NCBI GenBank assembly: GCA_031969515.1
Contig: DALYKF010000031.1
Location: forward strand, 1-35,947
Direction: 5' to 3'
Source of the DNA: Coleofasciculaceae cyanobacterium CTOTU46641
GTDB taxonomy: Bacteria; Cyanobacteriota; Cyanobacteriia; Cyanobacteriales; Coleofasciculaceae
DNA: 35,947 nt
Position 1 is the first letter of the stretch. Each line of letters opens with the position of its first letter. Positions 2,708 through 26,359 of the stretch are shown piece after piece. A program made the translations under genes and the position numbers. The notes under the pieces were generated by a model. It had not been told where the DNA came from, searched no databases, and saw only the letters and a program-made list of their open reading frames with translations.

Positions 2708-5700
2708 ATGAAACTCAAGACAAAGTTTGTGTCAGGTTTTTTAGGGGTTGCATCTCTAGTAGCCATATTAGGGATTATTAATATTCAAACAAAGAAAAAT
2801 GTTGATGAACAGTTTAATAAAATTACTGAAAGTACTACTCGTCAACTCATTGCCCTAAATCAGGTCAAAGTTGCCTCAGTCATCATGATGAATGAGGTCT
2901 ATAGCTATGCGGTGATTGCGGGAGAATCCAACTCCATTGCTCCTGTCAAGCCAGGGGATTCACCAGCAGAGAAACAACCCAACTTAGACACTATAGAACT
3001 AGAAAAACAGGCAAAAAAAGACAAAGAAGAATTTAATCAGTCAGTAGAAACTATCGATAAATCGTTAGCGGATTTTCAGACCCTTGCTCAAAATCCAGAA
3101 ATGCAGAATGTTTATCGACAACTATTAACCAGTAAAATCCAACTCGCTGAAATCGGTCAAGAAATTTTAGAATTAAAGGGCGAAAAATTTCAAGCCGGGA
3201 ATCTACTTCGCAAACGACAAGAGTTTGAAGCGGCTCAAGAAAAATTTTTAGAAGTTGTTGATCGCGCCATCAGCGTTAACTTAGAAGCGTTAGAACGTGA
3301 AAATATAACCGCTAATCGCAGTGCGACCTATTCTCTAGTTATTAACCTAACATCCGTCACCGTAGTCATTACAATATCGATAATCTTTGGCATACTCTTA
3401 GCAGAAAGAATAACCAATCCCATTATAAAACTCAAAGAAGCTGCTGCAAAGATTGGAGAGGGAGAATTTGATACCATAGTCGAGATCAAAACTCAGGATG
3501 AACTGAGCATTTTAGCTGATGCCTTCAATCATATGGTCAAGCAGCTCCAAGACACAACCGTTTCTAAAACCTATCTCGATAACATTATCAGTTCCTTAAG
3601 TGATGCCCTGATTGTTCTGAATAAAAACATCAAAATTGAAAGCTTCAATGAAGCCGCTTTATATCTTTCCGGATATCAACCCAACGAACTACGCGGTCAA
3701 GCCTTAGATATCTTCTTTAAAGAAGATAATTTTTTAGGCTATTTAGAATCCAATGATTCCCAACCGAATGGATTTCTAGGCAGACGAGAAACAACCTTCT
3801 TTGCCAAAGATGGCATTCAAATTCCCGTCTCCGTCACCGCCTCTGTGATGCAAAATGCAGCAGGCAAAATTCAAGGAATTGTTTGCCTAGTTCAAGACAT
3901 ATCCGCACGCAAACGGGCAGAAGAAGCACTACGCCGACAAGCCCTAATGTTTGAAACCATTTATGATGGCGTGATCCTCACTGATTTAGCAGGTCGAATT
4001 CTGGATTGGAACCCCGCCGCTGAGAGAATATTTGGTTATGAAAAAACCGAAGTATTAGGTAAAACCTGCGGAGTCGTTTACCAACCCGAAGAATCAATAG
4101 TACTAACCCAACAAATGATTTATGGCTTGATGAGTGAAGGACGCTGGACAAGCGAGATTGAATTTAGCCGTAAAGATGGTACTCAAGGAGTTTGCGAAAC
4201 AGTAGTTGTACCCTTACGAGATGAACAAGGTCAACCCATAGCAGCAATTGGCGTAAATCGGGATATTACTGAGCGAAAACAATACGAAAATCAATTAGTT
4301 GAAGCACGAGAAGCTGCCCTAGAAGCTGCACGAGCAAAAGCTCAATTCTTAGCGAATATGAGTCATGAAATCCGCACTCCTATGAACGGAGTTTTGGGAA
4401 TGAGTGAATTACTTTTAACAACTGAACTTAGCGTTCGACAACTTGATTTTGTCAAAACTCTACAGGTCAGTGGCGAACACTTATTAAGAGTAATTAACGA
4501 TATTCTGGACTTCTCCAAACTTGAAGCGGGAGAAATGCGATTAGATAGCGATGAGCTAAACTTAAATCGCTGCTTAGAAGAAGTCTTAGATCTATGCAAT
4601 CCCCAAGCAGATATTAAAGATTTAGAACTAGCCCTTTTAGTCGATACCGACGTACCCCGATACCTCCTCGGAGATGCAGGTCGCCTACGGCAAATTCTCA
4701 CAAATTTAGTCGGCAATTCTATCAAATTTACCGAAACTGGAGATATTGTTATCCACGTATCTGTTGACCCATCCTCCTCAGCAATTGAAGAACTAACCCC
4801 TACAAACAACCAACAACCAATAACCAACGACCAACAACCAATAAAATTACGATTTGCGGTTAAAGATACTGGCATTGGGATTCTTCCAGAAGACAAGAAA
4901 AAGCTATTCCAAGCCTTCTCCCAAGTCGATGCTTCCACCACCCGCAAGCATGGAGGTACGGGGTTAGGTCTAGCCATTTGTAAGCAACTTGTAGAAATAA
5001 TGGGTGGAGAAATTGGCGTGGAAAGTGAACCCGGAATTGGATCTACATTCTGGTTTACGGCAACGTTTATTAAGCTAGCCGTTGACTCCACTAAAGAAGC
5101 TATGAATCAGGCTTATAGCAGCATTCCTGTTTCCCCTGAATTTTTAACTGGAAAGCGAGTATTAGTAGTAGACGATCGCCCCATTAATCGCAAAATTGTC
5201 CAGCATCAATTATCAGCAAAAGGCATGGAAGTGGATGAAGCGGATAATGGCATTATTGCCCTCAACGCGTTACAAGCAGCGGCTGAAGCTGGAAAACCCT
5301 ACGATGTGGCATTACTCGATATGAAAATGCCTAAAATTGATGGGTCAACTCTCGGACGACTGATTCTTGCTGAACCCGATTGGTCGCGTACAAAATTAGT
5401 ATTGATGACCTCCATGCACGCCGGAGATTCTGCTCAACCTTTACTTAAAAGTGGATTTGCTGATTATTTAGTCAAGCCAGTTAAAGAATCCCAATTACTC
5501 GACTCACTGCTGAAAGTACTCGCCTCTGAAGAAGAGACATCAACCCCTAATTCCTCCTCTTCCTTAACATTAGAAGGAGCGCCCCCTAATCAACAACAAG
5601 ACACCAGCTTGAAAATTCTGTTAGTAGAAGATACGCCCATTAACCTCAAATTAGTACAGCATCAGGTGCAACTGTTAGGACATCACTCAGAATTCGCAGA

Positions 5701-7551: not shown

Positions 7552-7586
7552 CAGTCCGCTCCAACAGGATTGTTATACGCCGTTTC
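7552..7586. repeat. Short dispersed repeat, copy 1 (cAGTCCGCTCCAACaGGATTGTTAtacGCCGTTTC)
   Basis: Two other copies are at 9603-9635 and 18165-18188. Copies 1 and 2 share about 33 nt. Confidence 0.7.
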
Positions 7587-7603: not shown

Positions 7604-8014
7604 CTAAACTTGAATGATATCAAAGGTATCACGATCGCCAATCCGATAAAACAAGAAGTCAGAATCGAGGGTGAGAATTTGCCGATACCCAGTCTTTTCA
7701 GCCGCCACAACCAGAGTTGCATCTGCCAAATCCATCGGTCTGTCGCGGTATTGCTCCATCAGTGCCAACAAACGGCTGTAATCACTCTCCTGGATCTCGT
7801 AAACTGTCAGCAGTTTGTCTAACAGAAGCTGCCCCAACTGTTTTTGCATTTGCCAGCCGCCACGATGCAGGGCAAGATACATCGCCTCGGTTAGACATGA
7901 CCAAGTTGTGACGAGAGGTTTTGCCAAACGCATCACGGCACTTTTGTAGGCTTTGTGCTGAGGCTGAGTTCGGTCAACGAGGCACAGCAGAACCCCTGCA
8001 TCACACAGGATCAT
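7604..8014 (-). CDS. vapC: PIN-domain toxin (VapC family)
   Basis: 136 aa. Acidic PIN residues are in the right positions (ILCDAGVLL..D; DATLVVAAE; LTLDSDF). It overlaps the upstream small gene by 4 nt. Confidence 0.8.
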   Translation of the reverse strand: MILCDAGVLLCLVDRTQPQHKAYKSAVMRLAKPLVTTWSCLTEAMYLALHRGGWQMQKQLGQLLLDKLLTVYEIQESDYSRLLALMEQYRDRPMDLADATLVVAAEKTGYRQILTLDSDFLFYRIGDRDTFDIIQV

Positions 8015-8271
8015 AGCTCTAGCCCTTGTTGCCGATACTTGTTGAGCAGGAGTTGTTGATAGTTGCTGGCTGGTTCAGGTGGAGTTACATCTAGGCGATC
8101 AACTGCTTCAAACCATTTTGACCATGCACCTACAAGCGTTTCATCAGGCTGACTATCAGTAATTTCAGCTTGATGCTTGTGAATGACAAAATCAATAAAG
8201 TCACTTACTTGCTGTAAAAGTGGTTCGGAAAGTTGCTGTAATTTAGCAATAGCGGTGTCACGAATGGTCAT
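8011..8271 (-). CDS. Type II antitoxin (DUF2281-like) partner of VapC
   Basis: 86-aa ORF with start/stop overlap ATGA with vapC. The motif LLQQVSDFIDFVIHKHQ resembles DUF2281 antitoxins. Confidence 0.65.
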   Translation of the reverse strand: MTIRDTAIAKLQQLSEPLLQQVSDFIDFVIHKHQAEITDSQPDETLVGAWSKWFEAVDRLDVTPPEPASNYQQLLLNKYRQQGLEL

Positions 8272-9597: not shown

Positions 9598-9846
9598 TTA
9601 GTCAGTCCGCTCCAACCGGATTGTTATGCCGTTTCTTTGCAAATATGGTTGCAATTGCTTACTCTTGCCTATTCCGTTAGCTTGGGCACACTGCCAAACC
9701 ACGCGATCGCTACTATTGACTTCCAACCCTATCTCTTCAAACAGGACAAAGCGAATATAAACTAACTCAAGCCAGCCACTAGCGGCAAGGCTACCTGCTA
9801 AGACAACAGAATGTCCACGTAAATTATGATCAACCAGAACATTCAT
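9598..9846 (-). pseudogene. DUF5615 (Mut7-C/PIN-like toxin) gene, 3'-disrupted
   Basis: MNVLVDHNL...VVWQCAQANG matches the DUF5615 N-terminal half. The last 10 codons are supplied by the dispersed repeat at 9603-9635. Possible remnants of the C-terminus lie in other frames further downstream. It overlaps the DUF433 gene by 4 nt. Confidence 0.5.
9603..9635. repeat. Short dispersed repeat, copy 2
   Basis: See copy 1. The sequence is cagtccgctccaaccggattgttatgccgtttc. Confidence 0.7.
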
Positions 9847-10223
9847 GCCTTTGATTCAAGTTTAGCCCGTTCTGCCCGGAGTTTTGCCCGAATCACTTCC
9901 GTACCTGGTCTAGGGGGTTTTGCAGCAATGTGAGCAACGAGAGCACGATTCTGCTCCTCATAATATTGTCGTAGTTCCTCGGCTTCCTTAAGGACGGCTT
10001 GGTACTCTGCTTCAACCTCGGCACGATGGGCATCAATGTAAGATAGAGCGGAATTAACCTGTTCATCGGTGAGGCTGAGCATGGCACGAATGAACTTTGG
10101 TGGATACTGCTCTGTCACATAGTCCATCACGTCATACAAAGTAATACGGGTTCCTGAAATTGTCAGTCCCCTCTCTGTACGAATGATAGCTGCTTGCCCA
10201 TCAGAATGCGAAGTCATAGCCAT
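9843..10223 (-). CDS. DUF433-domain protein (antitoxin-like partner of DUF5615)
   Basis: 126 aa. ERGLTISGTRITLYDVMDYV is the DUF433 signature. It has a C-terminal coiled-coil tail. Confidence 0.7.
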   Translation of the reverse strand: MAMTSHSDGQAAIIRTERGLTISGTRITLYDVMDYVTEQYPPKFIRAMLSLTDEQVNSALSYIDAHRAEVEAEYQAVLKEAEELRQYYEEQNRALVAHIAAKPPRPGTEVIRAKLRAERAKLESKA

Positions 10224-10445
10224 AACCTTGGAACAGCTAAGTCTATATTACCTCGCCAAAAAACTGATAGGTATGATGTCTACCCACCAGCTTCTAGTTC
10301 CTTTAAAAGTCCTCTAAATACTTGATTTCACGCCTTCTGTTACCAGCAGGGGAAAGTCTTGCCAGTTTCGCTGCTTCAGAGCCATGCGGATTATCTGAAT
10401 AGGCATCCACAACATCAATAGTGCGATCGCTTACACCAGTGAAAA

Positions 10446-10572
10446 CCCAGCCTACGGCGAACTTGCGATAGCGAAGCGCTGCTGCGAAGCGCAGATCGCA
10501 CTGGACAGCACACAAGCGATCGCTCTTCATATTGCTTGTTGGTTGAGAAACTGAGTTACTGCTTCCACTCCC
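10446..10572. repeat. Composite repeat, B-type unit copy B1 (contains HIP1 sites)
   Basis: cctacggcgaacttgcgatagcgaagcgctgctgcgaagcgcagatcgcactggacagcacacaagcgatcgctcttcat...gagaaactgagttactgcttccactc. Related copies are at 11221-11312, 12431-12573 and 13379-13402. Confidence 0.8.
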
Positions 10573-10589
10573 CTCAACAAAAGGGCTTG

Positions 10590-10778
10590 TTAGCTGGCGG
10601 TTGTATTCAGTAGTAACCATTCTACAAATGCCTCCCGCCCTAGCTCCCCCGATGCGATCGCCAACACCACACGCTCTTGTTCATCTACACAGACGTTAAT
10701 TTCCATTCCATTCAGCACAAGAAAAGTCTCTACGGCAGCATGACCTGTACGTTTGTTTCCATCAGAAACCGCATTATG
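10590..10778 (-). pseudogene. Doc/Fic-family (death-on-curing) toxin remnant, C-terminal half only
   Basis: The translation HNAVSDGNKRTGHAAVETFLVLNGMEINVCVDEQERVVLAIASGELGREAFVEW matches the Doc motif region (HxFx[DN]GNKRT...LNG) and the C-terminus. The frame closes with TAG immediately upstream, and the N-terminal approximately 65 aa are missing. Confidence 0.55.
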
Positions 10779-11090: not shown

Positions 11091-11312
11091 GTGAAAGGAA
11101 ACGATCGCCCTCTCATTTTATCTTGGCAATCACGTCCACGGTCACAGCCGTCCAGTGCGATCGCGCTTCTAGTTAGTACTGCCAAGAAAAGCGATGCTGG
11201 GTTTCCTTTTGTCAACTCAGCCTACGGCGGTAGGCGATTGCCCTGGACGGCACACAAGCGATCGCTCTTCATATCGCTTGTTGGTTGAGAAACTGAGTTA
11301 TCGTTTCCACTG
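11091..11312. repeat. Composite structured repeat A1+B2 (about 220 bp, imperfect terminal inverted repeats GTGGAAACGAT)
   Basis: The A unit (11091-11220) is almost identical to 13249-13378. The B unit (11221-11312) is related to B1/B3. The A and B arms are partly reverse-complementary (gtccagtgcgatc.gcgcttc). Confidence 0.8.
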
Positions 11313-11339
11313 TGTTGTTAGACCGTGCCTCACGGAACA

Positions 11340-11729
11340 CTACCGATTTACCAATCCTTGCAGTTCACTGATGTCGATATCGAGTCCTTGACGCTTCAGA
11401 TATTGATTCAGATTGATCTGGATGAATAAATCTTTGAGTTCTTCTGCAATCTCTGGGGGTGGACTGCCAGATAATGCCGTTGCGATTAGGCGTTCTGCGG
11501 CTCGTAACTCACCACATTCGATCGCGAGAGATGCAGCGCTACGATGAAGGACAGAGCGAGTGGGTTCAGCATCGAGAACACTAGCAATTAAATTGGCAGC
11601 TTGGGTTTCTTGTTCAAAGGCTTGGCGTGTTAACTGTGCCGCCTGTTCGATCGCACCTCTTAAACGGGCAACTGCCGCTGCTTCGGCTAAATCCATTGCT
11701 TGTTGGTGAAGCGTTTGAATCTGGTTCAT
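11340..11729 (-). CDS. Hypothetical alpha-helical protein (129 aa), downstream gene of a two-gene cassette
   Basis: Ala/Gln-rich helical ORF. It overlaps the upstream 189-aa gene by 4 nt. No recognisable motif. Confidence 0.5.
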   Translation of the reverse strand: MNQIQTLHQQAMDLAEAAAVARLRGAIEQAAQLTRQAFEQETQAANLIASVLDAEPTRSVLHRSAASLAIECGELRAAERLIATALSGSPPPEIAEELKDLFIQINLNQYLKRQGLDIDISELQGLVNR

Positions 11730-12295
11730 TGAAGTAAGGCTCCTTCGGGATTCTGTTTTGCGCTAACAACAGAAATTGGGCGGCTGAACTCTACCACAAT
11801 GATATAGGCTGGCAACCCTTCTGCATCAGATGCGCCAGTTTGTTCAGTTTTCTGCTTGACTCTGGCATTGATCTGACTCCGATTCCCCTTGCGAATTCCA
11901 GAAACCTCCAATCGAGCCATACGCTGGAACGGCAGCAGTGTGCTTGAATCTTGGCTCCCCAGCCAGTAGTCAAATCCAGTTCCCTTACGAGAACGTTCAA
12001 TCACCGTCAGATTGGTCAATTGCAGAATTAATAGGAATGCAATGCCATAAGCCGCTTGCTCGGTCGTATATTCGTCATCATTCCAGCATCGCCTTGCTTG
12101 TTCCGTAACGGGCTGCCAATCTAACTGGAACCGAGCGGAAAATTCTCCTTCGACTTCGAGGATTACTCCTGGCTCATGGGTTTCATCCGTTAGACAAATT
12201 GCACCCGCTTCTGCGATCGCGGCTCCAAAAGCGGGCGTGATTGCAGGAAGCCCTTGATTAAGGCGTTGTAAGTTTAAGATTTGATACTGGCTCAA
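11726..12295 (-). CDS. Hypothetical protein (189 aa), upstream gene of the two-gene cassette
   Basis: Intact ORF bracketed by composite repeats. No family recognised by eye. A possible D...E-x-K-like region (GFDYWL...RLEVSGIRKG) is speculative. Confidence 0.5.
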   Translation of the reverse strand: MSQYQILNLQRLNQGLPAITPAFGAAIAEAGAICLTDETHEPGVILEVEGEFSARFQLDWQPVTEQARRCWNDDEYTTEQAAYGIAFLLILQLTNLTVIERSRKGTGFDYWLGSQDSSTLLPFQRMARLEVSGIRKGNRSQINARVKQKTEQTGASDAEGLPAYIIVVEFSRPISVVSAKQNPEGALLQ

Positions 12296-12430
12296 AACGG
12301 TGTTGCCCTATAGAAACTAGAGGCTCAATTTTACTTGCGATCGCTACAGCTTGAGTCGCTGGCAATAATTTTGCCTTGATTGCCTTCTTCGACTTGGGGG
12401 CACGCCTGAAACTCATAAATCTCGTCGCCC

Positions 12431-12573
12431 CAACCTACGGCGAACTTGCGATAGCGAAGCGCTGCTGCGTTCGCCCTTGGCGTTGCCGAAGGCTAGCGCA
12501 GATCGCACTGGACGGCACACAAGCGATCGCTCTTCATATCGCCTACTGGTTGAGAAACTGAGTTACCGCTTCC
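12431..12573. repeat. Composite repeat, B-type unit copy B3
   Basis: Near-identical to B1, with a 25-nt insertion (ttcgcccttggcgttgccgaaggcta). Confidence 0.8.
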
Positions 12574-12609
12574 ACTCTCTTCGACGAGACGACTTGTTAG
12601 CTGACGGCG

Positions 12610-12999
12610 CTACTCCAGACACTGAAATCCCTTTTCCCCCTTCAATTTGCCATCGAAGCTTACGGTTTGTGTGCAACCCGCCTGTCGAGATACCGCCCCA
12701 ATCAAATAGTCAGAGAAATCAGCCTTGCCCTGCTTGTATCGCTGTAGAGCCTGGTCAATCGTTGAGCGGTTTTCAAATTCAAAAGCCGCACTATGCAACA
12801 TGGACTCCAGGACACTGACGATCTCGTCTTTATGAAAGCCATAATTTGCGCCCCTAAGTACCCAAACCAACTCACACAGAACGATATTGGTGATAAAGCA
12901 AGGCTGATTCTGCTGAATGACTGTAACGGCTTGTTGCCATTGCTGCTCATCATCTCTGGTGAGGTATCGAACGAGGATGTTGGTATCAAGTCCAATCAT
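12610..12999 (-). CDS. vapC: PIN-domain toxin (VapC family)
   Basis: MIGLDTNILVRYL is the PIN N-terminal motif. The likely start is the internal Met at 12999; the ORF track extends to 13020. It overlaps the antitoxin gene. Confidence 0.75.
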   Translation of the reverse strand: MIGLDTNILVRYLTRDDEQQWQQAVTVIQQNQPCFITNIVLCELVWVLRGANYGFHKDEIVSVLESMLHSAAFEFENRSTIDQALQRYKQGKADFSDYLIGAVSRQAGCTQTVSFDGKLKGEKGFQCLE

Positions 13000-13231
13000 T
13001 CGCGCCCTCGGAAATGGCAATTTCCATATCCTCGAGGGAAGCTCGTTGAATGTTGGGTCGATGGAGAATGCCGGATAGGGTTTCTACGGCAACATTGAGG
13101 GGAAAAATTTTGACTTGACCTTCGTTGTCAATCACAAACTCGACTCGGCTACCGCTTACCAGCTTGAGATGCTGCCGAATTTCTTCAGGCAGGGTAATTT
13201 GTCCGGTATCGGTAACTGTTGTACTGAGCAT
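12986..13231 (-). CDS. vapB: AbrB/MazE/SpoVT-type antitoxin (VapB)
   Basis: 81 aa. TGQITLPEEIRQHLKLVSGSRVEF is a swapped-hairpin AbrB-type DNA-binding motif. It is immediately 5' of the PIN gene. Confidence 0.7.
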   Translation of the reverse strand: MLSTTVTDTGQITLPEEIRQHLKLVSGSRVEFVIDNEGQVKIFPLNVAVETLSGILHRPNIQRASLEDMEIAISEGANDWT

Positions 13232-13248: not shown

Positions 13249-13402
13249 GTGAAAGGAAACGATCGCCCTCTCATTTTATCTTGGCAATCACGTCCACGGT
13301 CACAGCCGTCCAGTGCGATCGCGCTTCTAGTTAGTACTGCCAGAGAAAAGCGATGCTGGGTTTCCTGTTGTCAACCCAGCCTACGACGAGCTTGCGATCG
13401 CA
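13249..13402. repeat. Composite repeat A2 plus truncated B unit
   Basis: It matches 11091-11225 with about 4 mismatches over 130 nt, followed by cctacgacgagcttgcgatcgcac. Confidence 0.8.
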
Positions 13403-13486
13403 CTTTTTTTCTAGCGATCGCTTGACAATTAAGACAGTTGCTACAAGATTAAAATCATATTTTTCCTATTACAAGACAGCAAGATT

Positions 13487-13693: not shown

Positions 13694-14257
13694 TTAAACA
13701 TCAAATCCATACCTCTCTTTCAAAAAAGCTCTTGTTTTTTCGTCAGGACTTTCCCCATAGCAAGAAGCAACAACTTCTCCATAATCTTCTAAATCAATTG
13801 ACTCAGTTGAATTTAATGCTTGTAGGAATCTTTGTTCAGCAGAAGGATGGATGAGGACAAAATAATATGCCCAACGTCCAGTACTGTCTTTAGCTTTAAG
13901 CTTATGAATTAAATGACCTCGACTTGCAATATGCCGATTAAGATAAGTATCGCCATCAGATGAGGTCGTGCTGTTTCCTTGATTCTTTTCCTGCTCCCAT
14001 TGTTCTAGTTGTAGGAGTGCATGATTGACTGCATCTCGAACCTGATTATTCTCATGCTCCTTCATATTTTCAAGAATTTTCTTCCCTTCAAGGTTTTCCA
14101 CTCCTGCCAATGTATAGGCATAGGCATCAAGGTCAATTTGTTCCCCCTTGCCAAGATTAAGCTGATCCCGAAGAGCATTCACATCTCCCATCCCAACTAA
14201 GGCGAGGAGACAACGGGCGTGCAAGTCATAACCACTGATGTTCTTCTTTGCCATCAT
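13694..14257 (-). CDS. Hypothetical protein with N-terminal HEAT-like repeat, co-transcribed with the NACHT gene
   Basis: 187 aa. It overlaps the NACHT gene stop by 4 nt. The N-terminus resembles a PBS-lyase HEAT repeat (ALVGMGDVNALRDQL...VRDAVNHALLQL). The C-terminal domain is unknown. Confidence 0.55.
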   Translation of the reverse strand: MMAKKNISGYDLHARCLLALVGMGDVNALRDQLNLGKGEQIDLDAYAYTLAGVENLEGKKILENMKEHENNQVRDAVNHALLQLEQWEQEKNQGNSTTSSDGDTYLNRHIASRGHLIHKLKAKDSTGRWAYYFVLIHPSAEQRFLQALNSTESIDLEDYGEVVASCYGESPDEKTRAFLKERYGFDV

Positions 14258-17004
14258 TCATCTCCTTTGCTATTGATTGAAGTGTTTATGATTTGTGTTA
14301 AGGATGATATGACTTGTTCGCCTCCGATCAATGTTAAATAGACCAAAGCTTCATCTCGATCTTCATTGGTTAGCAAATCATCCTGAAAGGCTTTTAGCAG
14401 TGGTTCTATCATTTCGGGGACAAAACAGCCTAATCGACCCATTGCGATCGCGACTAATTGCTTAGGGCTTTCCGGGATATCTGAAGTAATGAGAGATTGT
14501 AGAACTTGAGTATCCTGCGGACGGTGAATCGGCGTAATCAGGGGTAAATCTTTGTGGGGCTTTCTTCCATCTGCAACAGTTGCCCACTGCCTAATCCAGT
14601 CATCAACTTGATTAAAGACAAGCGTTTCAGTTCCACAAACACTCAAAATCAAAGCCGCCCACGTTCGAGAATAGGCATCGCGCCTATCATCTGTTACAAT
14701 TTGCCGTAAGACCTCAAGTTCTTCTTCATTAAAGCGGTAAGCTGTATAGGTGTGGCATGTCTTGGCGCTTGTTAACCATCCCAAAGCCCACAGCACTGCA
14801 AATGAAATAGCCTCATGTTCGCCGCTCTCCTTTGCGGTTTCCAACAATAAGCCTACAGTTTTTGGCAAGAGAGAATCGGGGAGGAAGTCAATCCTGATGT
14901 TAGAGTTCAGTACTTGGGTTCGATAGAATGCGTTCATTAGTTTAAGTGCTGCATCAGCACGGATTTTGATCGAGTTATTATCCTGTAACTTTGTCAAAAG
15001 AGGCTCCAATATCTCGAATGCATTATCCGCGTTAAGCACGTCACCGCTTGTCGTTGCCATCGAGTAAACAGCCCCGATCCTGCTCCGGCGGTTGCCACAG
15101 TATTTTACAAAGCTTTGCAACATCCGTTTTCGGCATCGTTCTGCAAAGCAAGAGCGCATGAGAGAGTACAGAACTTCATCCATGAGTGTGTTCTGTTTTG
15201 TGTTGAACCCATCCAATCTGTTTAGATTATCTGTAGCTGCATCGATGACGGCATCAACGGTTTCACCACTCACATCGGGTTCTTCGACTAGGGTTTGTAG
15301 CGCAAAGATGGATAAAGCACGAGCTTCCCTTTCAGCAGTGAGAGGCGAAGGGAGTAGCATTAACATTGCATCATCAGCAGTGATACCACTTTTTCCGAAT
15401 TTACCGTCTTTTCGACGAGGTAAGGAACCAATACAAAAGCGAATGACTTCCTGCCAATAACCGGCAGTTACAGGTTCTGTTTTTGTTACAAGTCCCCAAA
15501 AATCGACTTTTCTCTCTGCAATTTCAATCTCATGCACTAGCTGGTGCAAGCGCTGTAGAACTTCTACCCCTTCAGAGAAAATACGACCATTCAGTAATGC
15601 CTGGGCTGCAAAATACTCCTGGAACGATTGATGAAAAAATTGGACTTCATCGCAATCCATTTGGTCTCGTATACTAGTTCCTGCAATGGTTAGCAACCCA
15701 ATCTGGCTGAGAACTAAGTCATACCATTCTTCAGGAGAATACCGCTGTATTCTGCTTGTTGCTTTGTTGGCATAAAACTCTTCGATCGCTTCAATCACCT
15801 GTGACTCTTGCCAGTGTTGAGCACCATCCAAGCGCATCTGGTAAGCAAGGTATTCCAGGTGAGGCAGGATTTCATTATTGGGTTTGCTGACATAGCGGTC
15901 GTCCGAAATAGGACGACGTTTAATCATCAAGTCTACTGCTCGACGATAGAAATCTCCCCTCCGATCACGTGGCGAAATACTGTCTTGGAGCGCTAATTGA
16001 GTGATGAGAGTGAGGGGAAATACGTTTTCGCATAGGGTGGCTACTCTGCGGTCACTACAAACAAAAGATTCGAGAGCATTGGATAGAGATGCCTTTCCTA
16101 GAAATTTTGCAAAGTTCTGAGCAAATTCTTTCTTCTCAGAGCCTCTCAGAGGCGCTACATTAATGTGCTTGAAGGAACGCAGTGAGTCTGCGATAGTATT
16201 GAATCCAAAAACTCTAGAGGTGAGAACGATCGGGATTGGTTCATGGATGTTCGCAATCAGTTGAGCAAGCTGCCGTCGTTTCCGACTGGATGGAATTTCA
16301 TCCAGTCCATCGACTAGAAGTAAAACCTGTCCTTCTGACATTTTCTGTTCGAGCAGATCTGTCAGTAAGCGACGAGGCTCATTAGCGTGATAACCCAACT
16401 TTTGTAGTTGATACTCGATTAAATGGCTCAAACTGCACTCAAAGTCAGTGGCTAGCAGATCGCGACAGAATAGAACCACAGGTATCCAAGATTGATCCGG
16501 TAATGCCGCTTGATTTTCAGAGATTCTAGTCGAATCCTCTGTATGCAAAGGTGACAATGGATGCTTATCGAAATAACTATAAGCCAGAAAACGTAGAAGA
16601 GTTGTCTTACCACAACCCGGATCTCCCACGATTACTAATCGGGCTTCTGACGCTAACTGACTACTGATTTTGCAAACGGTTGGCTCTGGTTGTTGCAAGA
16701 GGTGCCGGATCGGCGATCTATCAAAACGCAAGGCACTCGTAAAGCTATCGCGGAATTGCTGATGAACTTGTTCTACATCAGTTGATTCAAGTTGAAAAAT
16801 TTGGCGCAGTGTAGATTGCTCAACCCGTTGGACATTGGTGGTGCTATTCCTGGCTGATGGGTTGTCTTGTTCAACATCTGTTTCAAGAAGAACGGAATCA
16901 GGGCGAGGATCGTAAGTCAGCAGCAATGGTAAATCGATGTATAGATCTTCGATCGGGAAATCGGCTGATCCAACTTGCTGTTGAATCAACAGTCCAACCT
17001 CCAT
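14254..17004 (-). CDS. NACHT-family STAND NTPase with C-terminal HEAT/ARM-like repeats
   Basis: 916 aa. Walker A is LVIVGDPGCGKTTLL. Walker B is VLLLVDGLDEI. An approximately 130-aa N-terminal region of unknown function precedes the NTPase. The C-terminal region is a long helical repeat. Confidence 0.8.
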   Translation of the reverse strand: MEVGLLIQQQVGSADFPIEDLYIDLPLLLTYDPRPDSVLLETDVEQDNPSARNSTTNVQRVEQSTLRQIFQLESTDVEQVHQQFRDSFTSALRFDRSPIRHLLQQPEPTVCKISSQLASEARLVIVGDPGCGKTTLLRFLAYSYFDKHPLSPLHTEDSTRISENQAALPDQSWIPVVLFCRDLLATDFECSLSHLIEYQLQKLGYHANEPRRLLTDLLEQKMSEGQVLLLVDGLDEIPSSRKRRQLAQLIANIHEPIPIVLTSRVFGFNTIADSLRSFKHINVAPLRGSEKKEFAQNFAKFLGKASLSNALESFVCSDRRVATLCENVFPLTLITQLALQDSISPRDRRGDFYRRAVDLMIKRRPISDDRYVSKPNNEILPHLEYLAYQMRLDGAQHWQESQVIEAIEEFYANKATSRIQRYSPEEWYDLVLSQIGLLTIAGTSIRDQMDCDEVQFFHQSFQEYFAAQALLNGRIFSEGVEVLQRLHQLVHEIEIAERKVDFWGLVTKTEPVTAGYWQEVIRFCIGSLPRRKDGKFGKSGITADDAMLMLLPSPLTAEREARALSIFALQTLVEEPDVSGETVDAVIDAATDNLNRLDGFNTKQNTLMDEVLYSLMRSCFAERCRKRMLQSFVKYCGNRRSRIGAVYSMATTSGDVLNADNAFEILEPLLTKLQDNNSIKIRADAALKLMNAFYRTQVLNSNIRIDFLPDSLLPKTVGLLLETAKESGEHEAISFAVLWALGWLTSAKTCHTYTAYRFNEEELEVLRQIVTDDRRDAYSRTWAALILSVCGTETLVFNQVDDWIRQWATVADGRKPHKDLPLITPIHRPQDTQVLQSLITSDIPESPKQLVAIAMGRLGCFVPEMIEPLLKAFQDDLLTNEDRDEALVYLTLIGGEQVISSLTQIINTSINSKGDE

Positions 17005-18164: not shown

Positions 18165-18188
18165 AAGTCCGCTCCAACCGAATTGTTA
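18165..18188. repeat. Short dispersed repeat, copy 3 (agtccgctccaaccgaattgttag)
   Basis: It shares its core with copies at 7552 and 9603. Confidence 0.6.
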
Positions 18189-18264: not shown

Positions 18265-18879
18265 TCAAGGTACTGGATATATTTTGTGATACCTTTCCCA
18301 CCAAACCAAATAAAAATGCCCTTGTAGCTTTATACCCCAAGCTCTGATGGTATTAGCAAATCTAAACCGAAAAGCCGTATCGTATTCTTCTAAACCGATT
18401 TCGATCCACCTATCCTGAGCTTCTTGCACCAAAGTAGTTAGCTCTTGATGGTGATGCTTAGGTACAGTTTTACCACCCTTAGCAGGTGTTTTTTGCTCAA
18501 ATAAGATTTCAGACCAAGTTGATTTTTCCAACAAACTAAAATTTGGAAGTATTTGGGTTTGCCATTCTTCCTCAGTCCAACATCTTTGTTCTCGCCATGA
18601 CCACTCTCCTTCCAAGTCAGACACAGTAGTACACCAAGTCAAGTTACAAGTTATTGCAAATGATTCTTCGCTAGGAAGATATAAAGACTTATTTTTACTT
18701 GGCTCTTCCTGAACCTTAACGACCTTCAAGGAAAGTTCAGGTATTGGCGCTATTTTCACAGTTTTGGTTACCAAATTTTCCACGCTAGACGAAAATCTTA
18801 CCGACTTTGCCTTGCGTGCCTGAGCTTTTTCTTCTTGCCTTTGCTTCCTTCTCTCAGCTTTGGAAGGTTTATCCGTCAT
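18265..18879 (-). CDS. Hypothetical protein (204 aa), candidate toxin partner of the Panacea-domain antitoxin
   Basis: Overlaps the upstream PanA-like gene by 4 nt. It has a basic N-terminus (KAERRKQRQEEKAQARKAK) and a Trp-rich C-terminal domain. No known family recognised. Confidence 0.55.
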   Translation of the reverse strand: MTDKPSKAERRKQRQEEKAQARKAKSVRFSSSVENLVTKTVKIAPIPELSLKVVKVQEEPSKNKSLYLPSEESFAITCNLTWCTTVSDLEGEWSWREQRCWTEEEWQTQILPNFSLLEKSTWSEILFEQKTPAKGGKTVPKHHHQELTTLVQEAQDRWIEIGLEEYDTAFRFRFANTIRAWGIKLQGHFYLVWWERYHKIYPVP

Positions 18880-19310
18880 AGGCTCGAATAATATTCATGC
18901 ATTGCAGCTAAGGGGATAACCTTATCACACCTCTCTGTAGGTTTCAGGTCGCCTCTAGCGTCTTTCCAAGGAGACTCCATATGAGTTAACTCACTTAACC
19001 ACTGCCCACTCTTGTCTTGGAGTGCCTCTAGAACTTTGTCAATAGAGTCTTGTTGATTGGGGGTTAAAGCATCAATGTCCCCATCAGCAAAGGTATCTTT
19101 ATTAACCTTAAATTGATCTCGATGATACCCATACAGAATAGGTACTACAGGACCATTCGCCCAAGCCTGAATATCTTCGTCAAACAAGGGGCTTTCATCC
19201 CAAACAAGAGACCAAGCTTGACTGTAATAAACAAGCTTTTGAAGCTTCATCGCAGTCATTTCGCCTGTTTTAGTTAGGATATATTTCGCCACATCCACAG
19301 CACGTGCCAT
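18876..19310 (-). CDS. Panacea-domain (DUF4065, PanA/SocA-like) antitoxin
   Basis: 144 aa. KLQKLVYYSQAWSLVWDESPLFDEDIQAWANGPVVPILYGYH matches the DUF4065 core (LQKLLYfaqgw...lf.e.feAW.hGPVvp.vY). Confidence 0.75.
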   Translation of the reverse strand: MARAVDVAKYILTKTGEMTAMKLQKLVYYSQAWSLVWDESPLFDEDIQAWANGPVVPILYGYHRDQFKVNKDTFADGDIDALTPNQQDSIDKVLEALQDKSGQWLSELTHMESPWKDARGDLKPTERCDKVIPLAAMHEYYSSL

Positions 19311-19498: not shown

Positions 19499-22198
19499 TT
19501 AAGCCAGAGGACGATCGCTTTTCGGCAATGGCTGTGTTTCTGCTCCCATCGGACTAATCAACCCCTGCGCTGTATTAAACAGATTAATCGGATTTCTGCC
19601 ATCAGTAATCAACACACTTTGAATACCCAGCGCTTGCAAAAGTCTAGCCTGCATTTCTGGACCAGCTTGAGCCATAGCTTTGAGCGTTTCAGAGCCAATT
19701 GCTTCTACTTTTTGTCTAAATTCAGCGCTAGTAATTTCTGCCATCCGCTGCGCTTTTTCAATATCCAAATTATTCAACGCTTGTTGATGCGCTAACTCAG
19801 CTTCCTGTCTTGCTCTTAATTGAGCTAATTCTACGTCCGAGCGAATCCTTGCCGCCTCAGCTTCTTGCTGTGCCAAATTCACCGTTAATTGACCTTGAAT
19901 TCTCGCTGCTTCTGCCTTAGCCCTGGCTTCTGCTGTTGCTTGCCCCGTAGATTCAATGGCGGCATTTTCAGCTTCTAATTCCAACAAATTCTTGCGCTCT
20001 GCTTCCGCTGCACTTTTATCAACAATTGCCTGCCGTTCTAGTCTCGCTTTGGCTTCTTGTTCAATCCGTTCAGCATCATGTCTAGCCGCTGCTTCTTGAG
20101 CATCTGTTGTAATTTGTATAGCAATCTGTACCGACTTTTGGAGACTCTTTAATGTCTCTTCATCTACGGGTTCAACGGATTGGATATCAACATTAAAAAT
20201 CACTAAGTTATTCGTCCTAAAACGCAATTCATCCCGTACATGACCTTCTGCATCTATTCCAAACACAGCCGTGCGAATAATGTGAGCCGAATTGCGATGA
20301 AATTCATCAAATTTTACACCCGCTACCGCACCTCGCACACGGGAAGCGATCGCTTTACAAGCCGTATCTACAAAATCCGGAACTTGAAACAGCTTGGCTG
20401 CTGCTTGTTCATCATGTCGATCCACATCAAAATACCAATTGTAGGATAAACGTAACTGCAATCTGGCATGATCTGAGGTTTCCACCGTGAAAAGATCCGT
20501 CATAAAATCTGGCCCTAATAACAAGGCTAAGGATTTGATAATATGAGGACGTTTAGGTACACTACCCGATAAACTTAACACCGTAAACGCTTCATCTGGC
20601 CCTAACATTACTAAGTCGGGACCGAATACAGTTCTGGCTGTTCTTTCCTTGTAATCATGGATTTGTACAGCGGCATTTTGTGGCACATGAAAGACAACCG
20701 CCCGACTTTTATCTCGTGCAGATGCGGTCTGATCTAGAGTGGATGACTCTGAGATTTCAGTTGAGCGATCGCTCCCTTTACTTTTGCTAACATGATACCG
20801 ACCCCGCTCAGAAACTGGGTCATTTTTGATCGCTAATAATTCTTCAACAATCGGGGGTAATTCTTTTTCCCAAAGCTCTTCATAGGGACTGAGCATATAA
20901 GCTTGGGGACCACTCACAACTTTCAGTTCACCCGTCTGAATATCACGCACATAAATCCCTTCATTTTTATCCAAAGGAATCGCTTGACGTTTTTCAATCA
21001 CTTCCACTTCTACACGGGGAATATAATCTCTGGGGCCAGCAATCATCCACATATCACCTGGGTACCGTTGGATTAAATTATCCCCTTCCCCTTCCCTAAA
21101 ACCTTCTTTCGCTTTGAGCAAAAGTGATTCTTGTTCGCCCAAAACATAAATGTTTTGAATGCCATTTTCCAGGGATTCACCGGGATGCAAGAAAAATGAA
21201 AGTCTGCCTTGGCGAACCTCTCGCATTCCTAACTGAGGTTTGCCCTCTTCATCAATGGGGTTGACAACAATACACCATTCTCTATCTCCTAATGTGGTAA
21301 TTTCTACTTCTCCAACCACCTCTTCATAGACATCAGGAATATGAATTTCGGCATCGGCAAACGTGACTAACCATTCATCACCCGCTTTACGTTGCCGACT
21401 AAAAATATCTGTAAAAGTGCGTTTTGCTCGCAAATGTAAGGCTTTTTTCTCGGTTAAAACGTAAGCCTTAATAATCCCAATTGCTTCCTCATCTACCCCA
21501 GGCAAATAGGCTCCTTCTTCCCTTACTAACCACTCTTCACCCGCTCTACGTCTATTCCCTTGGCGATCGGTACAATTTTGTCGCGCTAATAATCGTAACG
21601 CTTGATTCGGCTTAATTACGGTTGCCGTGACTACTTTGATCACTTCAACTTCAATTCGGGGACGATAAGTTCCTGGTCCTTCAAATAGCCACTCATCCCC
21701 TGCTAAACGGTTGATTGGTTCTGATTGAGTTGCGACTTCATCCGTGACTAAAATCGAATCGGAAAAATCTCTCAATGCTCTTAAACGTAGTGCTTGATTT
21801 CTCTCAACGACTGTCAGTTGGGTAATCTCTCCCTGAACGTCTTCACCAGGATAGAGTGGAAACGGTTCTTGGGCAAAGCGAATTTCAGCATCGCCGTATC
21901 TGAGTTTAATTTGTCCATATTCATCTGTAATCGGATTACCATTTTGATCTCGAAGTACAGGATTAGCAATCACACAATAATAGCGAGGTGGCACTACTAT
22001 CATGGGTTCAGGTTTTAATATTAGCCGCTCATGGTCACGTAGAGTAATGGTTTGAGGGCCAATTTCTAGCCGGGTCACACCTGTATTATTATCTAGAACG
22101 TGAATAAACTGCTGAGGTTTGAGGCGAATTACGCCTGTAGAACTTCCGGCGACTTCCGTTTTACTGTCAGTTTTTCGCTCAGTTGTATTCATTTCCAT
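19499..22198 (-). CDS. Major vault protein (MVP) homologue
   Basis: 899 aa, collinear with eukaryotic MVP. The N-terminal repeat [31 protein letters not shown] and motifs [26 protein letters not shown] and [16 protein letters not shown] are present. The SPFH-like shoulder and the C-terminal coiled coil with GPEMQ...[11 protein letters not shown] are also present. Confidence 0.85.
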
Positions 22199-22382: not shown

Positions 22383-23657
22383 TTAGAAATTAATGGCTTC
22401 ATTTGGACCCACTAAAGATATATAAGGTTCAGAAAAGTATTGATTAGCAACGGCTTGAGCGATTTCTGGAGTAACATTAGTAACGTCCTCCTGAAACTGG
22501 GTATCAAACTCAATCCCTAACCCCAGCGTCTCATACCAACCGTAGATTTGAGCAAGTTGAGCATTCGTTTGTTTCCCTAAAGCATACTGACCTAAAAGCT
22601 TATTCGTTGAAGTCTGAAGTTCATCAATACTCAGAGAAGACGTACAAAGGCGTTCAACTTCTGCACGTAGACCCTCTAGCGCTATGGTTGTATTTTCCGG
22701 TGCCGTACCCATATAGACCACGAACGTAGATGCCGACTGACGCGTCGGATAAAATGCAGAAACGTCATAGGCTAACCCTCGTTTTTCCCGCAGTTCCACA
22801 AACAAGCGACTGGAAAGACCATTTCCTAAGTAAGTATTGAGTAATTTTAAGGCAGCATAGTTCGGATCTTTGACGGCTGAAGCGAGATAGCCTAGCATAA
22901 CAATAGATTGCTGAGTTTCTTGAGGTGTAATAACTCGGCTAGGTTGAGATTTAATCAACGGTAAAACGGGTTGATTTACAGGTGTTTGAGGCGCTTGCCA
23001 ATCCCAAAATACGCTCGTAATCTGCTCGATCGCTTCCGCTGGAGTAACGCGACCTGCAACACTAATGACTAGGTTATCAGGACGGAAATAGGTTTGATGA
23101 TAGTCCTCTAGATCACTCCGCAATAACTTAGCGATCGCTGCTTCAGTTCCTAAAATTGAGAGACCATAGGGATGGTCTTGATACATTGCCTGTCGTAACT
23201 GCTCAAAGGCAATATTAAACGGTTGCTCTTTTTGAGAACGAATGTCTTGAATGGTTAAATGTCGTTCGAGTTCTACTTCAGTTTCTGGAAAACTCGGATA
23301 TCGCAACATCTGCCCTGCTAACTCTAACATTTCAGGCCAGTCTGTAGAAACAGTCTTGAGTGAGAGCAAAAAGTAATCCGTAGCTGTATCCGCACTAAGT
23401 TGAGCGCCAACTGACTCAACTCGTTCAGCAATTTCAATGGATGATAACTTCTGTGTTCCTTTCGTTAGTACGGCTGAAAGTAAGTGAGAAAGTCCAGCTT
23501 TTTCGCGGGATTCCCACTGACTCCCTGCTCGAATAAATAGACGAGTCGCAATAATATCTGCGGCTGAATTTTCTATAGCAATTACCACAATACCATTATC
23601 TAAAACCGTGCGGTGGATAATTTGCTGTTGTTCCGGAGCGGTCACATTTTGAGGCAT
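22383..23657 (-). CDS. M16-family peptidase, non-catalytic (beta-like) subunit
   Basis: 424 aa with the M16 fold, but the zinc motif position reads GLSHLLSAVLTKGT (no HxxEH). Confidence 0.75.
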   Translation of the reverse strand: MPQNVTAPEQQQIIHRTVLDNGIVVIAIENSAADIIATRLFIRAGSQWESREKAGLSHLLSAVLTKGTQKLSSIEIAERVESVGAQLSADTATDYFLLSLKTVSTDWPEMLELAGQMLRYPSFPETEVELERHLTIQDIRSQKEQPFNIAFEQLRQAMYQDHPYGLSILGTEAAIAKLLRSDLEDYHQTYFRPDNLVISVAGRVTPAEAIEQITSVFWDWQAPQTPVNQPVLPLIKSQPSRVITPQETQQSIVMLGYLASAVKDPNYAALKLLNTYLGNGLSSRLFVELREKRGLAYDVSAFYPTRQSASTFVVYMGTAPENTTIALEGLRAEVERLCTSSLSIDELQTSTNKLLGQYALGKQTNAQLAQIYGWYETLGLGIEFDTQFQEDVTNVTPEIAQAVANQYFSEPYISLVGPNEAINF

Positions 23658-24005
23658 TTTTGTTGTTGGTTGTTAGTTGTTAGTTGTTAGTTGTTAGTTG
23701 TTGGTTGTTGGTTGTTAGTTGTTAGTTGTTAGTTGTTAGTTGTTAGTTGTTGGTTGTTGGTGATTTGTTTTTAACCAATTTACCCAATTACTAACACTCC
23801 CACCCCCACTCCCCACTCCCCACTCCCCATTTGGTTGTTAGTTATTATATTATTTTCTAAATGCCTGCTACACATTAATCGCCGCGTCTTCGACTCTCCG
23901 CGTCATCAGCATCTATAGCGAACATAAATAAAATTAGTATTAGTCGAACACCAAACAGCAAACAACAAACAACCAACAACCAACAACCAACAACCAACAA
24001 CAAAA
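23658..24005. repeat. STRR heptamer array with a large inverted-repeat organisation between the two M16 genes
   Basis: (A/G)GTTGTT units occur about 14 times at 23660-23760. CCCCACT repeats occur at about 23800-23835. AACAACC/CAACAAC units occur at 23950-24003 and are the reverse complement of the first block. Confidence 0.8.
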
Positions 24006-25301: not shown

Positions 25302-26359
25302 CTGTTAGTTAGTAAATTGAAATTAGTCTCATAGTAGCGCTTGATCGAGTAAAAAGTAGAATAGACCTTTGGCATAAAGGGAGGGAAAAGGGGGAAAGGC
25401 GTTGAAAATCCTTTTTCCTTTGAGCTTTAACCTTTCCTTGGCTTTCGGATAAAGGACTTTTACAAGAGACGTTCATGAGCGTACCGCTCACACTCCAGGA
25501 TGAAAGGAGACTTTCAAAACAGGTTTAAGCTGTTCGTCATTTAAACCTGATTGTCAATAATTACAGAATCCTTGTAGTGCGACCATCTTGGTCGCTACTG
25601 ATACCCAATTTAAAGGCGTGACAGCTTAATAATACCCGATTACAGCTATGACATCCTCTGAAACCCACTCTAACGAATAGGGTGTCAGCTTCCCAGCATC
25701 ACTACTCGGCATTCCTACTTCATCTGGAGTCTAACCACTTAGCCGTCTGTAGGCAACCCCCGTGAGTCCCATTACAATTAATCCTAGGAACGGTGAATGA
25801 TACTAAGTTGTGGTTCAGGATGTAATACAAGCCGTTTATGAGAGGAGGAGGGGGAGATGGGAAGATGGGGAGAGAACGTTATCTGTTTAAATGCAACTTG
25901 GTATGAGCGCATTTCTCCTTTCCAGGCAGGGTTATTCTCCCGAAGTTCACCTGGAACTGCTTTTCCCCTATCCAGGATTAAATGTAGTGCTTGATACTAT
26001 TCTTGTGGAATAGGAAGACTGAAAACCCTAATTCGGCAAGATTATACCCTTGTGTTATCACCACCAATACACGAGAGCCAAAAAAAAGTAAATTTAGCAA
26101 AATCTTGTCAACTTCTTGACATTTATTATTTATTCTTTGAGCATCGAAGGCACACTAATTCAGTTAGATCGCCTTTTATACTTGGATCGGTTAATAATCC
26201 GATCTCAGCCATCAGCTCTAATAGTGATTACTCAAAAGCAAATTGCTGAGTTAAATGCTCGGTTTATGACCGTGCTAAGTATAGCTGCCAAGAAGGACCG
26301 TCTTAGTTTACCTGAGAAGCATATTGAGTAGTTGGTCATGTACCTGAATTGGTAATGCC

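What the first reader, a model, noticed from the sequence alone, without database searches (positions are those of the whole stretch)
11340..12295. Uncharacterised two-gene cassette (189 aa plus 129 aa) sitting in a toxin-antitoxin slot
An intact overlapping gene pair (ATGA-type 4-nt overlap) is bracketed by the composite repeats. It occupies the same position as bona fide TA pairs in neighbouring cassettes, but neither protein shows a recognisable TA, nuclease or NTPase motif by eye. Both are Ala/Gln-rich and compositionally unlike the flanking AT-rich genes. This makes it a candidate novel TA or abortive-infection module.
Basis: inference. Interest (0 to 1): 0.6.

Follow-up and report, generated by a model that had tools for sequence, protein, structure and literature searches.

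The report
Mobile nuclease-fold plus TPR gene pair
The two overlapping genes are a real, widely spread and horizontally mobile module: a small protein with a restriction-endonuclease-like fold plus a small TPR protein. It has no named family and looks like a new toxin-antitoxin or phage-defence pair, but no activity has been shown.

Summary
The pair exists as described. Gene A (189 aa, 11726-12295, minus strand, TTG start) overlaps gene B (129 aa, 11340-11729, ATG) by ATGA.

Neither matches any Pfam, NCBIfam, PADLOC or PHROG model. Structure prediction is more informative:
- A has a PD-(D/E)xK (restriction-endonuclease-like) core. E79, D109 and E130 sit at the canonical catalytic positions and are 96-100% conserved across 148 diverse relatives. 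The usual lysine is replaced by Ser132.
- B is a three-hairpin TPR protein.

The A-then-B order is kept in 80 of 80 genome loci examined, nearly always with the same 4-nt overlap. Both genes are under strong purifying selection. The DNA shared between genomes is only about 60 nt of promoter and leader, plus A and B. Flanking genes differ almost everywhere and are enriched for PIN, ParE and other toxin-antitoxin genes.

Outside cyanobacteria the partner is about 365-385 aa: the TPR part plus an unknown C-terminal domain.

The repeats bracketing the pair in this window are specific to this genome and are not part of the module.

Best reading (about 50%): A is a nuclease toxin or effector and B is its TPR-type inhibitor or sensor, that is, a new toxin-antitoxin or abortive-infection family. 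Toxicity, binding and nuclease activity are untested.

The parts
11726..12295 (-). Gene A, 189 aa, TTG start. It has an N-terminal alpha/beta region (residues 1-70; conserved C34, H40, D73) and a PD-(D/E)xK-type core. The core is helix 74-93 (E79), strands 96-101, 110-114 (D109) and 127-134 (E130-V-S132-G), helix 139-152 (R145, K149, Q152), and strand 163-169 (E169).
11340..11729 (-). Gene B, 129 aa, ATG start overlapping the stop of A (ATGA). It is a three-hairpin TPR-like helical protein with the conserved motif EPTRSVLHRSAA (residues 55-66) and G-x-PP-x-EIA (88-95).
12296..12355 (-). Conserved promoter/leader that travels with the genes. The -10-like box TAAAAT lies at 12328-12333 (minus strand), followed by 32 nt of leader before the TTG start.
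   Evidence: This stretch is 72-92% identical in the upstream DNA of many other genomes. The shared block extends a median of 59 nt upstream of A. No conserved RNA structure was found here. The generic sigma-70 scan did not call it as a promoter, so its promoter role is inferred.
11315..11339 (-). Short 3' tail of the module. It contains a 5-bp stem-loop, CCGTG-AGG-CACGG on the minus strand, at 11323-11335, 4 nt after the stop of B.
   Evidence: DNA similarity to eight other loci ends at about 11315. The hairpin was read directly from the sequence. It has no T-run and was not called as a terminator.
12356..12430 (-). Decayed remnant of an unrelated small gene (..GDEIYEFQACPQVEEGNQGKIIASD..) that was carried along upstream of the module. 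Coordinates are approximate.
   Evidence: Intact N-terminal versions of the same ORF (MTVRQPRYSKEEFAQRGDALYESQIRSKVEEGNHGKIVAID, then a stop) lie upstream of A in L008 and L010.
11091..11342 (.). Composite repeat (D7+D12+D6) immediately 3' of gene B. It is not part of the module.
   Evidence: Repeat families are. Copies are found only in assemblies of the same species (L001-L006) and in none of the 80 other loci.
12429..12607 (.). Composite repeat (D9+D6) between the neighbouring PIN gene and the upstream region of the module. It is not part of the module.

Best explanation
The region is an autonomous, horizontally mobile two-gene conflict module, either toxin-antitoxin (TA) or abortive-infection type.

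Gene A most likely encodes a metal-dependent nuclease of the PD-(D/E)xK superfamily. It carries an unusual E79 / D109 / E130-x-S132 signature. K149, on the following helix, may supply the missing lysine.

Gene B encodes a small TPR protein that is co-transcribed and translationally coupled to A through the ATGA overlap. B is proposed to bind A and keep it inactive, or to gate it in response to a trigger.

A starts with a weak TTG codon and B with ATG, which would favour an excess of B over A.

What is shown:
- Both genes are real and under purifying selection.
- The pair is strictly linked.
- The folds are as described.
- The module moves alone and lands in variable, TA-rich regions.

What is inferred:
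- A has nuclease activity.
- A is toxic.
- A and B bind each other.
- A is the toxin and B the antidote, rather than the reverse.
For: Linkage:
- A is followed by B in 80 of 80 loci drawn from 310 species-level hits. The two nearly always share the 4-nt overlap.
- The same arrangement is found in distant relatives: L087, L093, L094 and a Hymenobacter plasmid.

Selection: dN/dS is 0.05-0.17 for both genes.

Fold of A:
- The model is confident, with pLDDT 89.6.
- The top Foldseek hit is the SPARDA nuclease domain, probability 0.99.

Active-site residues: D109 and E130 are 100% conserved, S132 99%, E79 96%, R145 97% and K149 95% across 148 relatives, each representing a 50%-identity cluster. They sit at the canonical helix 1, strand 2, strand 3 and helix 2 positions of the fold.

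Fold of B: it is a TPR protein.

Mobility:
- The shared DNA covers only about 59 nt upstream of A through about 3 nt beyond B.
- 249 neighbouring ORFs fall into 184 families.
- The module's GC content stays at 0.45-0.50 while the flanks range from 0.42 to 0.51.
- Copies occur on plasmids of Anabaena, Leptolyngbya and Hymenobacter.
- Calothrix parasitica carries two copies (L062 and L068).

Context:
- The most frequent neighbour families include PIN, ParE, DUF433, DUF2281 and Uma2.
- In Microcystis strains the gene just upstream varies between a HEPN_Apea protein and a MavL protein.
- In Leptolyngbya boryana a DUF4231 gene lies close by.
- In L087 a HipA/HTH pair lies next to the module.

Start codons: A starts with TTG in 56 of 76 loci, and in 29 of 29 intact loci of the close clade. 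B always starts with ATG.

Weaker support:
- A is truncated while B is intact in L035, L081 and Leptolyngbya ohadii. The converse was not seen.
- Two A-B fusion proteins exist.
Against: - No TA, defence, Pfam, NCBIfam or PHROG model matches either protein.
- Neither protein has the DNA-binding domain typical of type II antitoxins.
- The canonical lysine of the (D/E)xK motif is absent. Nuclease activity is therefore not assured.
- I could not inspect the model coordinates, so I could not confirm that the conserved residues cluster in space.
- The evidence from decayed copies rests on only 2-3 loci. In those loci the promoter is also lost.
- The two fusion proteins could be frameshift artefacts in metagenome assemblies.
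- In many genomes the neighbours are ordinary housekeeping genes.
- No copy was found in phage genomes.
Confidence: 0.5

Rival explanations
1. This is a sensor-effector phage-defence system rather than an addiction-type TA. B, with its TPR peptide-binding surface, recognises a phage protein and activates or releases nuclease A. A is not toxic without that trigger. In the long form found outside cyanobacteria, the extra domain of about 250 aa on B would be the sensing or second effector part.
For: - Long-B partners of 363-383 aa are the rule in three distant, non-cyanobacterial loci.
- The module sits next to defence genes that vary between strains in Microcystis and L. boryana.
- The top Foldseek hit for A is the effector nuclease of the SPARDA defence system.
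Against: - There are no PADLOC matches.
- The cyanobacterial clade has lost the extra domain yet remains under strong selection.
- Many copies lie among housekeeping genes, not in defence islands.
- No phage-encoded homologues or counter-defence links were found.
Confidence: 0.25
2. This is a non-conflict accessory function in DNA or RNA metabolism. Examples would be a structure-specific nuclease (Hjc/YraN-like) or an excision-controlling factor analogous to cyanobacterial XisH/XisI, with B as its adaptor.
For: - Very strong sequence conservation (84-92% amino-acid identity across cyanobacterial orders) is unusual for fast-evolving conflict genes.
- The synteny is stable within Nostoc, where the pair lies downstream of a gene of about 1940 aa.
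Against: - The distribution is patchy: 310 species-level hits in a collection of 185,579 species genomes.
- Locations vary, and copies occur on plasmids and as duplicates.
- There are no Pfam XisH or XisI matches.
- B is a TPR protein, unlike XisI.
- The module moves as a promoter-plus-two-gene unit. That is typical of selfish modules, not of core repair genes.
Confidence: 0.13
3. A is a catalytically inactive PD-(D/E)xK-fold scaffold, since the lysine is replaced by serine. The pair would then have a structural or regulatory role unrelated to nucleic-acid cleavage.
For: - Ser132 replaces the canonical Lys in 99% of 148 relatives.
Against: - The three acidic positions are 96-100% conserved, together with R145, K149 and Q152 on the next helix. 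This pattern is expected for a working metal-dependent active site with a relocated lysine. Such variation is well documented for this superfamily (established knowledge, not tested here).
Confidence: 0.1

Closest known systems
PD-(D/E)xK (restriction-endonuclease-like) nucleases: SPARDA DREN/DUF4365 domain, Hjc, YraN/UPF0102, HamA of Hachiman, lambda-type alkaline exonuclease
   Same: A has the same alpha-beta-beta-beta-alpha-beta core. It carries Glu on helix 1, Asp at the start of strand 2, and Glu in strand 3.
   Different: - There is no detectable sequence relationship to any of these proteins.
- The motif is E-x-S-G instead of (D/E)-x-K.
- A has an extra conserved N-terminal region of about 70 aa with Cys34 and His40.
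- A is always paired with a TPR protein.
Type II toxin-antitoxin operons, such as the VapBC-type pairs beside it at 12610-13231 and 7604-8271
   Same: Both are small, co-directional, overlapping two-gene units. Both are mobile, occur in several copies, appear on plasmids and cluster with other TA genes.
   Different: - Here the putative toxin gene comes first.
- The partner is a TPR protein without a DNA-binding domain.
- No known TA family model matches either protein.
Cyanobacterial XisH/XisI pairs
   Different: - There are no XisH or XisI family matches.
- B is an all-helical TPR protein.
- The A family also occurs in Bacteroidota, Nitrospirota and other phyla.

Membership tests
PD-(D/E)xK nuclease superfamily (protein A) | Alpha-beta-beta-beta-alpha-beta core fold | tested here: met
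PD-(D/E)xK nuclease superfamily (protein A) | Conserved acidic residues: Glu on helix 1, Asp at strand 2, Asp/Glu in strand 3 | tested here: met
   E79 is 96% conserved, D109 100% and E130 100% in 148 diverse relatives. They sit at the expected secondary-structure positions.
PD-(D/E)xK nuclease superfamily (protein A) | Lysine two residues after the strand-3 acidic residue, completing the (D/E)xK motif | tested here: not met
   That position is Ser132 in 99% of relatives. K149 (95%) and R145 (97%) on the next helix could substitute. I could not check this in three dimensions.
PD-(D/E)xK nuclease superfamily (protein A) | Metal-dependent phosphodiester cleavage | not testable with these tools
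   This needs a biochemical assay.
PD-(D/E)xK nuclease superfamily (protein A) | Sequence-profile match to a curated family of the clan | tested here: not met
   No Pfam or NCBIfam hit was found for A or for 146 relatives. No PDB sequence hit was found with profiles.
TPR / helical-hairpin repeat proteins (protein B) | Stacked antiparallel helix pairs with a TPR-like sequence pattern | tested here: met
Type II toxin-antitoxin system | Two adjacent, co-oriented, co-transcribed small genes conserved as a unit | tested here: met
   The pair is kept in 80 of 80 loci with the 4-nt overlap. One conserved upstream region is shared.
Type II toxin-antitoxin system | One product arrests growth and the other neutralises it by direct binding | not testable with these tools
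   Only indirect hints exist: two fusion proteins and A-decayed/B-intact loci.
Type II toxin-antitoxin system | Antitoxin carries a DNA-binding domain (HTH, RHH, AbrB, Phd) and represses its own operon | tested here: not met
   No such domain was found in A or B. B is a TPR protein. No clear operator palindrome or conserved leader structure was found.
Type II toxin-antitoxin system | Mobile, patchy, multi-copy distribution, often in TA-rich islands and on plasmids | tested here: met
Known anti-phage defence systems (PADLOC-DB 2.0) | HMM match of a component to a catalogued system | tested here: not met
   No hits were found for A, B, long-B or distant A relatives.
XisH/XisI | Match to the XisH and XisI families | tested here: not met

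The most novel reading that the evidence does not exclude
A large protein family not assigned to any Pfam family is a new branch of PD-(D/E)xK nucleases. It comprises at least 2000 clusters at 50% identity across cyanobacteria, Bacteroidota, Nitrospirota and other phyla, and carries an E-D-ExSG...K signature. In this reading it acts as the toxin or effector of a previously undescribed two-gene system. Its antidote or sensor is a TPR protein: a short form in cyanobacteria, and a long form with an unknown 250-aa domain elsewhere. A TPR-type antitoxin would be a new way of controlling a TA toxin.
Probability: 0.4. Interest if true: 0.65.

Novelty: new variant of a known kind. Interest (0 to 1): 0.5.

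Why it matters
If confirmed, this would add a new toxin or effector family and a new type of partner, a TPR protein, to the catalogue of bacterial conflict modules. It would also give a function to thousands of 'hypothetical protein' entries in cyanobacteria, including bloom-forming Microcystis. The E-D-ExS active-site variant would extend the known plasticity of PD-(D/E)xK nucleases. The short-versus-long partner split offers a natural experiment on how such modules are regulated.

Tried and rejected
- **Flanking repeats as module ends or recombination sites.** Rejected. Repeats D6, D7, D9 and D12 occur only in assemblies of this species and are absent from all 80 other loci.
- **A conserved third gene.** Rejected. 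249 neighbouring ORFs fall into 184 families and none is universal.
- **A structured 5' leader or RNA element.** Rejected. RNAalifold gives only -1 kcal/mol with no covariation. Rfam finds nothing in 7-20 kb.
- **Sequence-level family assignment.** This failed in every library:
  - Pfam, NCBIfam, PADLOC and PHROGs on A, B and long-B.
  - Pfam on 146 relatives of A.
  - PDB profile searches.
- **Phage origin.** No tblastn hit in 50,697 phage records.
- **Literature.** Three searches found no description of this pair. The DefensePredictor paper was checked for TPR/nuclease pairs and had no relevant match.
- **AFDB fold search.** The library was unavailable.
- **C-terminal domain of long-B.** There is no Pfam or PDB relative by sequence. 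No structure-prediction quota was left to model it.
- **Generic promoter and terminator scan.** It found nothing convincing around the pair.

Full report

On the minus strand, a 189-aa ORF (gene A, 11726-12295) is followed by a 129-aa ORF (gene B, 11340-11729). The ATG of B and the TGA of A share the tetranucleotide ATGA at 11726-11729. A can only start at a TTG codon.

The pair is bracketed by repeats:
- D7+D12+D6 at 11091-11342, directly 3' of B.
- D9+D6 at 12429-12607.

Nearby small-gene pairs are genuine toxin-antitoxin (TA) modules:
- PIN + MazE/AbrB at 12610-13231.
- PIN + DUF2281 at 7604-8271.
- A DUF433 gene at 9843-10223.
- A Panacea-domain gene plus a 204-aa gene at 18265-19310.

The window belongs to a Coleofasciculaceae-type cyanobacterial MAG. 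Protein B is 100% identical to the UBA12227 entry.

Composition claims hold only in part. B has Ala 17% and Gln 10%; A has Ala 10% and Gln 8.5%. The pair's GC is 0.48-0.49 against 0.43 for the window, but the adjacent cassettes have GC that is the same or higher.

**2. Are these real genes, and a real pair?**

- A has 1229 homologous clusters at 90% identity and B has 859. All named ones are 'hypothetical'.
- An exhaustive profile search finds 2013 clusters at 50% identity for A. Of these, 539 have E<=1e-30.
- A scan of one genome per species found 310 species with an A relative.
- In all 80 loci retrieved, B follows A on the same strand. They almost always share the same 4-nt overlap, and A and B identities track each other, forming an 81-92% clade and a 58-72% clade.
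- Pairwise dN/dS against the window copy is 0.05-0.13 for A and 0.07-0.18 for B.

**3. What moves?**

- DNA similarity between the window and other genomes runs from 40-150 nt upstream of A to 0-25 nt past the stop of B.
- Among 465 locus pairs of the close clade, the shared block extends a median of 59 nt upstream and 3 nt downstream.
- The upstream piece contains a conserved TAAAAT box (12328-12333) 32 nt before the TTG start. No conserved RNA structure is present.
- In several genomes, and in decayed form in the window, the block also drags along the 5' fragment of an unrelated small gene.
- The repeats that bracket the pair here are found only in assemblies of the same species and in no other locus. 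They are local insertions, not module ends.
- Flanking genes are almost never the same: 249 neighbours fall into 184 families.
- The most frequent neighbour families are PIN (6, plus 2 PIN_3), ParE (4), Uma2, DUF433 and DUF2281 (3 each), and DUF4926. The rest are ordinary genes such as RuBisCO, psbA and ChpXY.
- In Microcystis strains the gene just upstream varies between a MavL-domain protein and a HEPN_Apea protein.
- In L. boryana a DUF4231 gene lies close by. In a distant metagenomic locus a HipA/HTH pair is adjacent.
- Copies occur on plasmids of Anabaena cylindrica, L. boryana and Hymenobacter radiodurans, but on no phage.
- Calothrix parasitica has two copies.
- Module GC stays at 0.45-0.50 whatever the flank GC.

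**4. What are the proteins?**

No Pfam, NCBIfam, PADLOC or PHROG model matches either protein. The only near-hit is a sub-threshold TPR_19 match for B. None of 146 diverse A relatives hits a meaningful Pfam family, and PDB sequence and profile searches are empty.

*Protein A.* AlphaFold2 with family alignments gives a confident model, pLDDT 89.6. A has an N-terminal alpha/beta region followed by an alpha-beta-beta-beta-alpha-beta core.
- Foldseek's best hit is the nuclease domain of the SPARDA defence system, probability 0.99, E 7e-3.
- Conservation across 148 representatives marks the canonical catalytic positions:

| Residue | Position in fold | Conservation |
|---|---|---|
| E79 | helix 1 | 96% |
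| D109 | start of strand 2 | 100% |
| E130 | strand 3 | 100% |

- The expected lysine two residues later is Ser132 (99%), followed by Gly133 (99%).
- R145, K149 and Q152 on the next helix are 94-97% conserved.
- Relocation or replacement of the lysine is known in this superfamily. That is my own knowledge and was not tested here.
- So A is best read as an active but atypical PD-(D/E)xK enzyme. Whether it cuts DNA or RNA cannot be told.

**5. Wider family**

- In three distant, non-cyanobacterial loci (L087, L093, L094), A is followed, again with a 4-nt overlap, by a 363-383-aa protein.
- The first ~120 residues of that protein are homologous to B.
- The remaining ~250 residues form a conserved domain with no Pfam or PDB relative.
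- The cyanobacterial clade therefore carries a short form of the partner.
- In Hymenobacter, the TPR part of B is fused to a sugar-transferase body. This is probably an insertion artefact.
- Two metagenomic proteins are A-B fusions. That is weak support for a physical complex.

**6. Mechanism**

The best-supported reading is a toxin-antitoxin or abortive-infection type module. A would be the nuclease toxin or effector, and B its TPR-type inhibitor or gatekeeper.

Points in favour beyond context:
- The upstream gene has a conserved weak TTG start: 29 of 29 intact close-clade loci and 56 of 76 overall. B always starts with ATG and is translationally coupled. This would give an excess of B.
- In the few decayed copies, A is truncated and B is intact (L035, L081, L. 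ohadii). The converse was not seen.

Points against:
- There is no DNA-binding antitoxin domain.
- There is no match to any catalogued TA or defence family.
- The catalytic lysine is missing.
- Fold scores are modest.
- There are no experimental data, and I could not find the pair in the literature.

Rival readings are a trigger-activated defence system, a non-conflict nuclease with an adaptor (Hjc- or XisH-like), or an inactive scaffold.

**7. Verdict**

The claim that no nuclease signature exists is corrected. Novelty: an uncharacterised family combination within a known kind of system. Interest is moderate (0.5).

Noticed in passing
window 19499-22198 (-): An 899-aa protein with the full set of Major Vault Protein domains (four Vault repeats, Vault_2/3/4 and MVP_shoulder; E down to 8e-65). 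It is a eukaryote-type vault shell protein encoded in a cyanobacterial genome, right next to the TA/defence island. It is also present in sister assemblies L001 and L002.
   Followed up: no
window 7554-7575, 9605-9626, 18167-18188 (+): A 22-nt motif, GTCCGCTCCAACNGRATTGTTA, occurs three times where none is expected by chance. Each copy lies at or just past the 3' end of a minus-strand small-gene cassette: the PIN gene, the 82-aa ORF and the 204-aa gene. It could be a shared 3' element or a recombination site.
   Followed up: partly
window 10446-10600, 11091-11342, 12429-12607, 13249-13415: Composite dispersed repeats rich in GCGATCGC (HIP1) sites fill the gaps between the small-gene cassettes. 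They are specific to this species' assemblies. ORFs called inside them, such as 10303-10620 (105 aa), are probably spurious.
   Followed up: partly
window 13694-14257 and 14254-17004 (-): A 187-aa gene with no family match overlaps a 916-aa NACHT/STAND NTPase gene with HEAT repeats by 4 nt. This is a likely two-gene defence unit. The NTPase gene is split into pieces in sister assembly L002.
   Followed up: no
window 18265-19310 (-): A Panacea (SocA) domain antitoxin gene (144 aa) overlaps a 204-aa gene with no Pfam match. This is a candidate Panacea-associated toxin of an unassigned family.
   Followed up: no
window 12356-12430 (-); L008 and L010 upstream of gene A: A decayed remnant of a small gene travels with the module (intact N-terminus: MTVRQPRYSKEEFAQRGDALYESQIRSKVEEGNHGKIVAID). 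It suggests an ancestral insertion into, or next to, that gene.
   Followed up: partly
window 4777-4846, 23645-23784, 23933-24016, 27666-27777, 28522-28591; also 2228-2286, 25840-25882, 27618-27665: Intergenic tandem arrays of heptamers (AACAACC/AACAACT and their complement) and of G-rich octamers (GGGGAGAT-like) occur at these positions. These look like typical cyanobacterial short tandem repeats.
   Followed up: no
L090 4435-5340 (Hymenobacter radiodurans plasmid); protein P0252: In Hymenobacter, the TPR part of B is fused in frame to a sugar-transferase body and is annotated as 'sugar transferase'. In P0252, an A homologue carries the first 85 residues of an HmaA-type SNF2 helicase. Both look like products of the module inserting into other genes.
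   Followed up: partly
L087 5543-6643, L093 4690-5781, L094 4834-5985: The long form of the partner protein has a conserved C-terminal domain of about 250 aa. Its motifs include RTxER..PFR, IAPDGxxIKxVGF and VPExMxDIVxPLW. It has no Pfam or PDB relative.
   Followed up: partly
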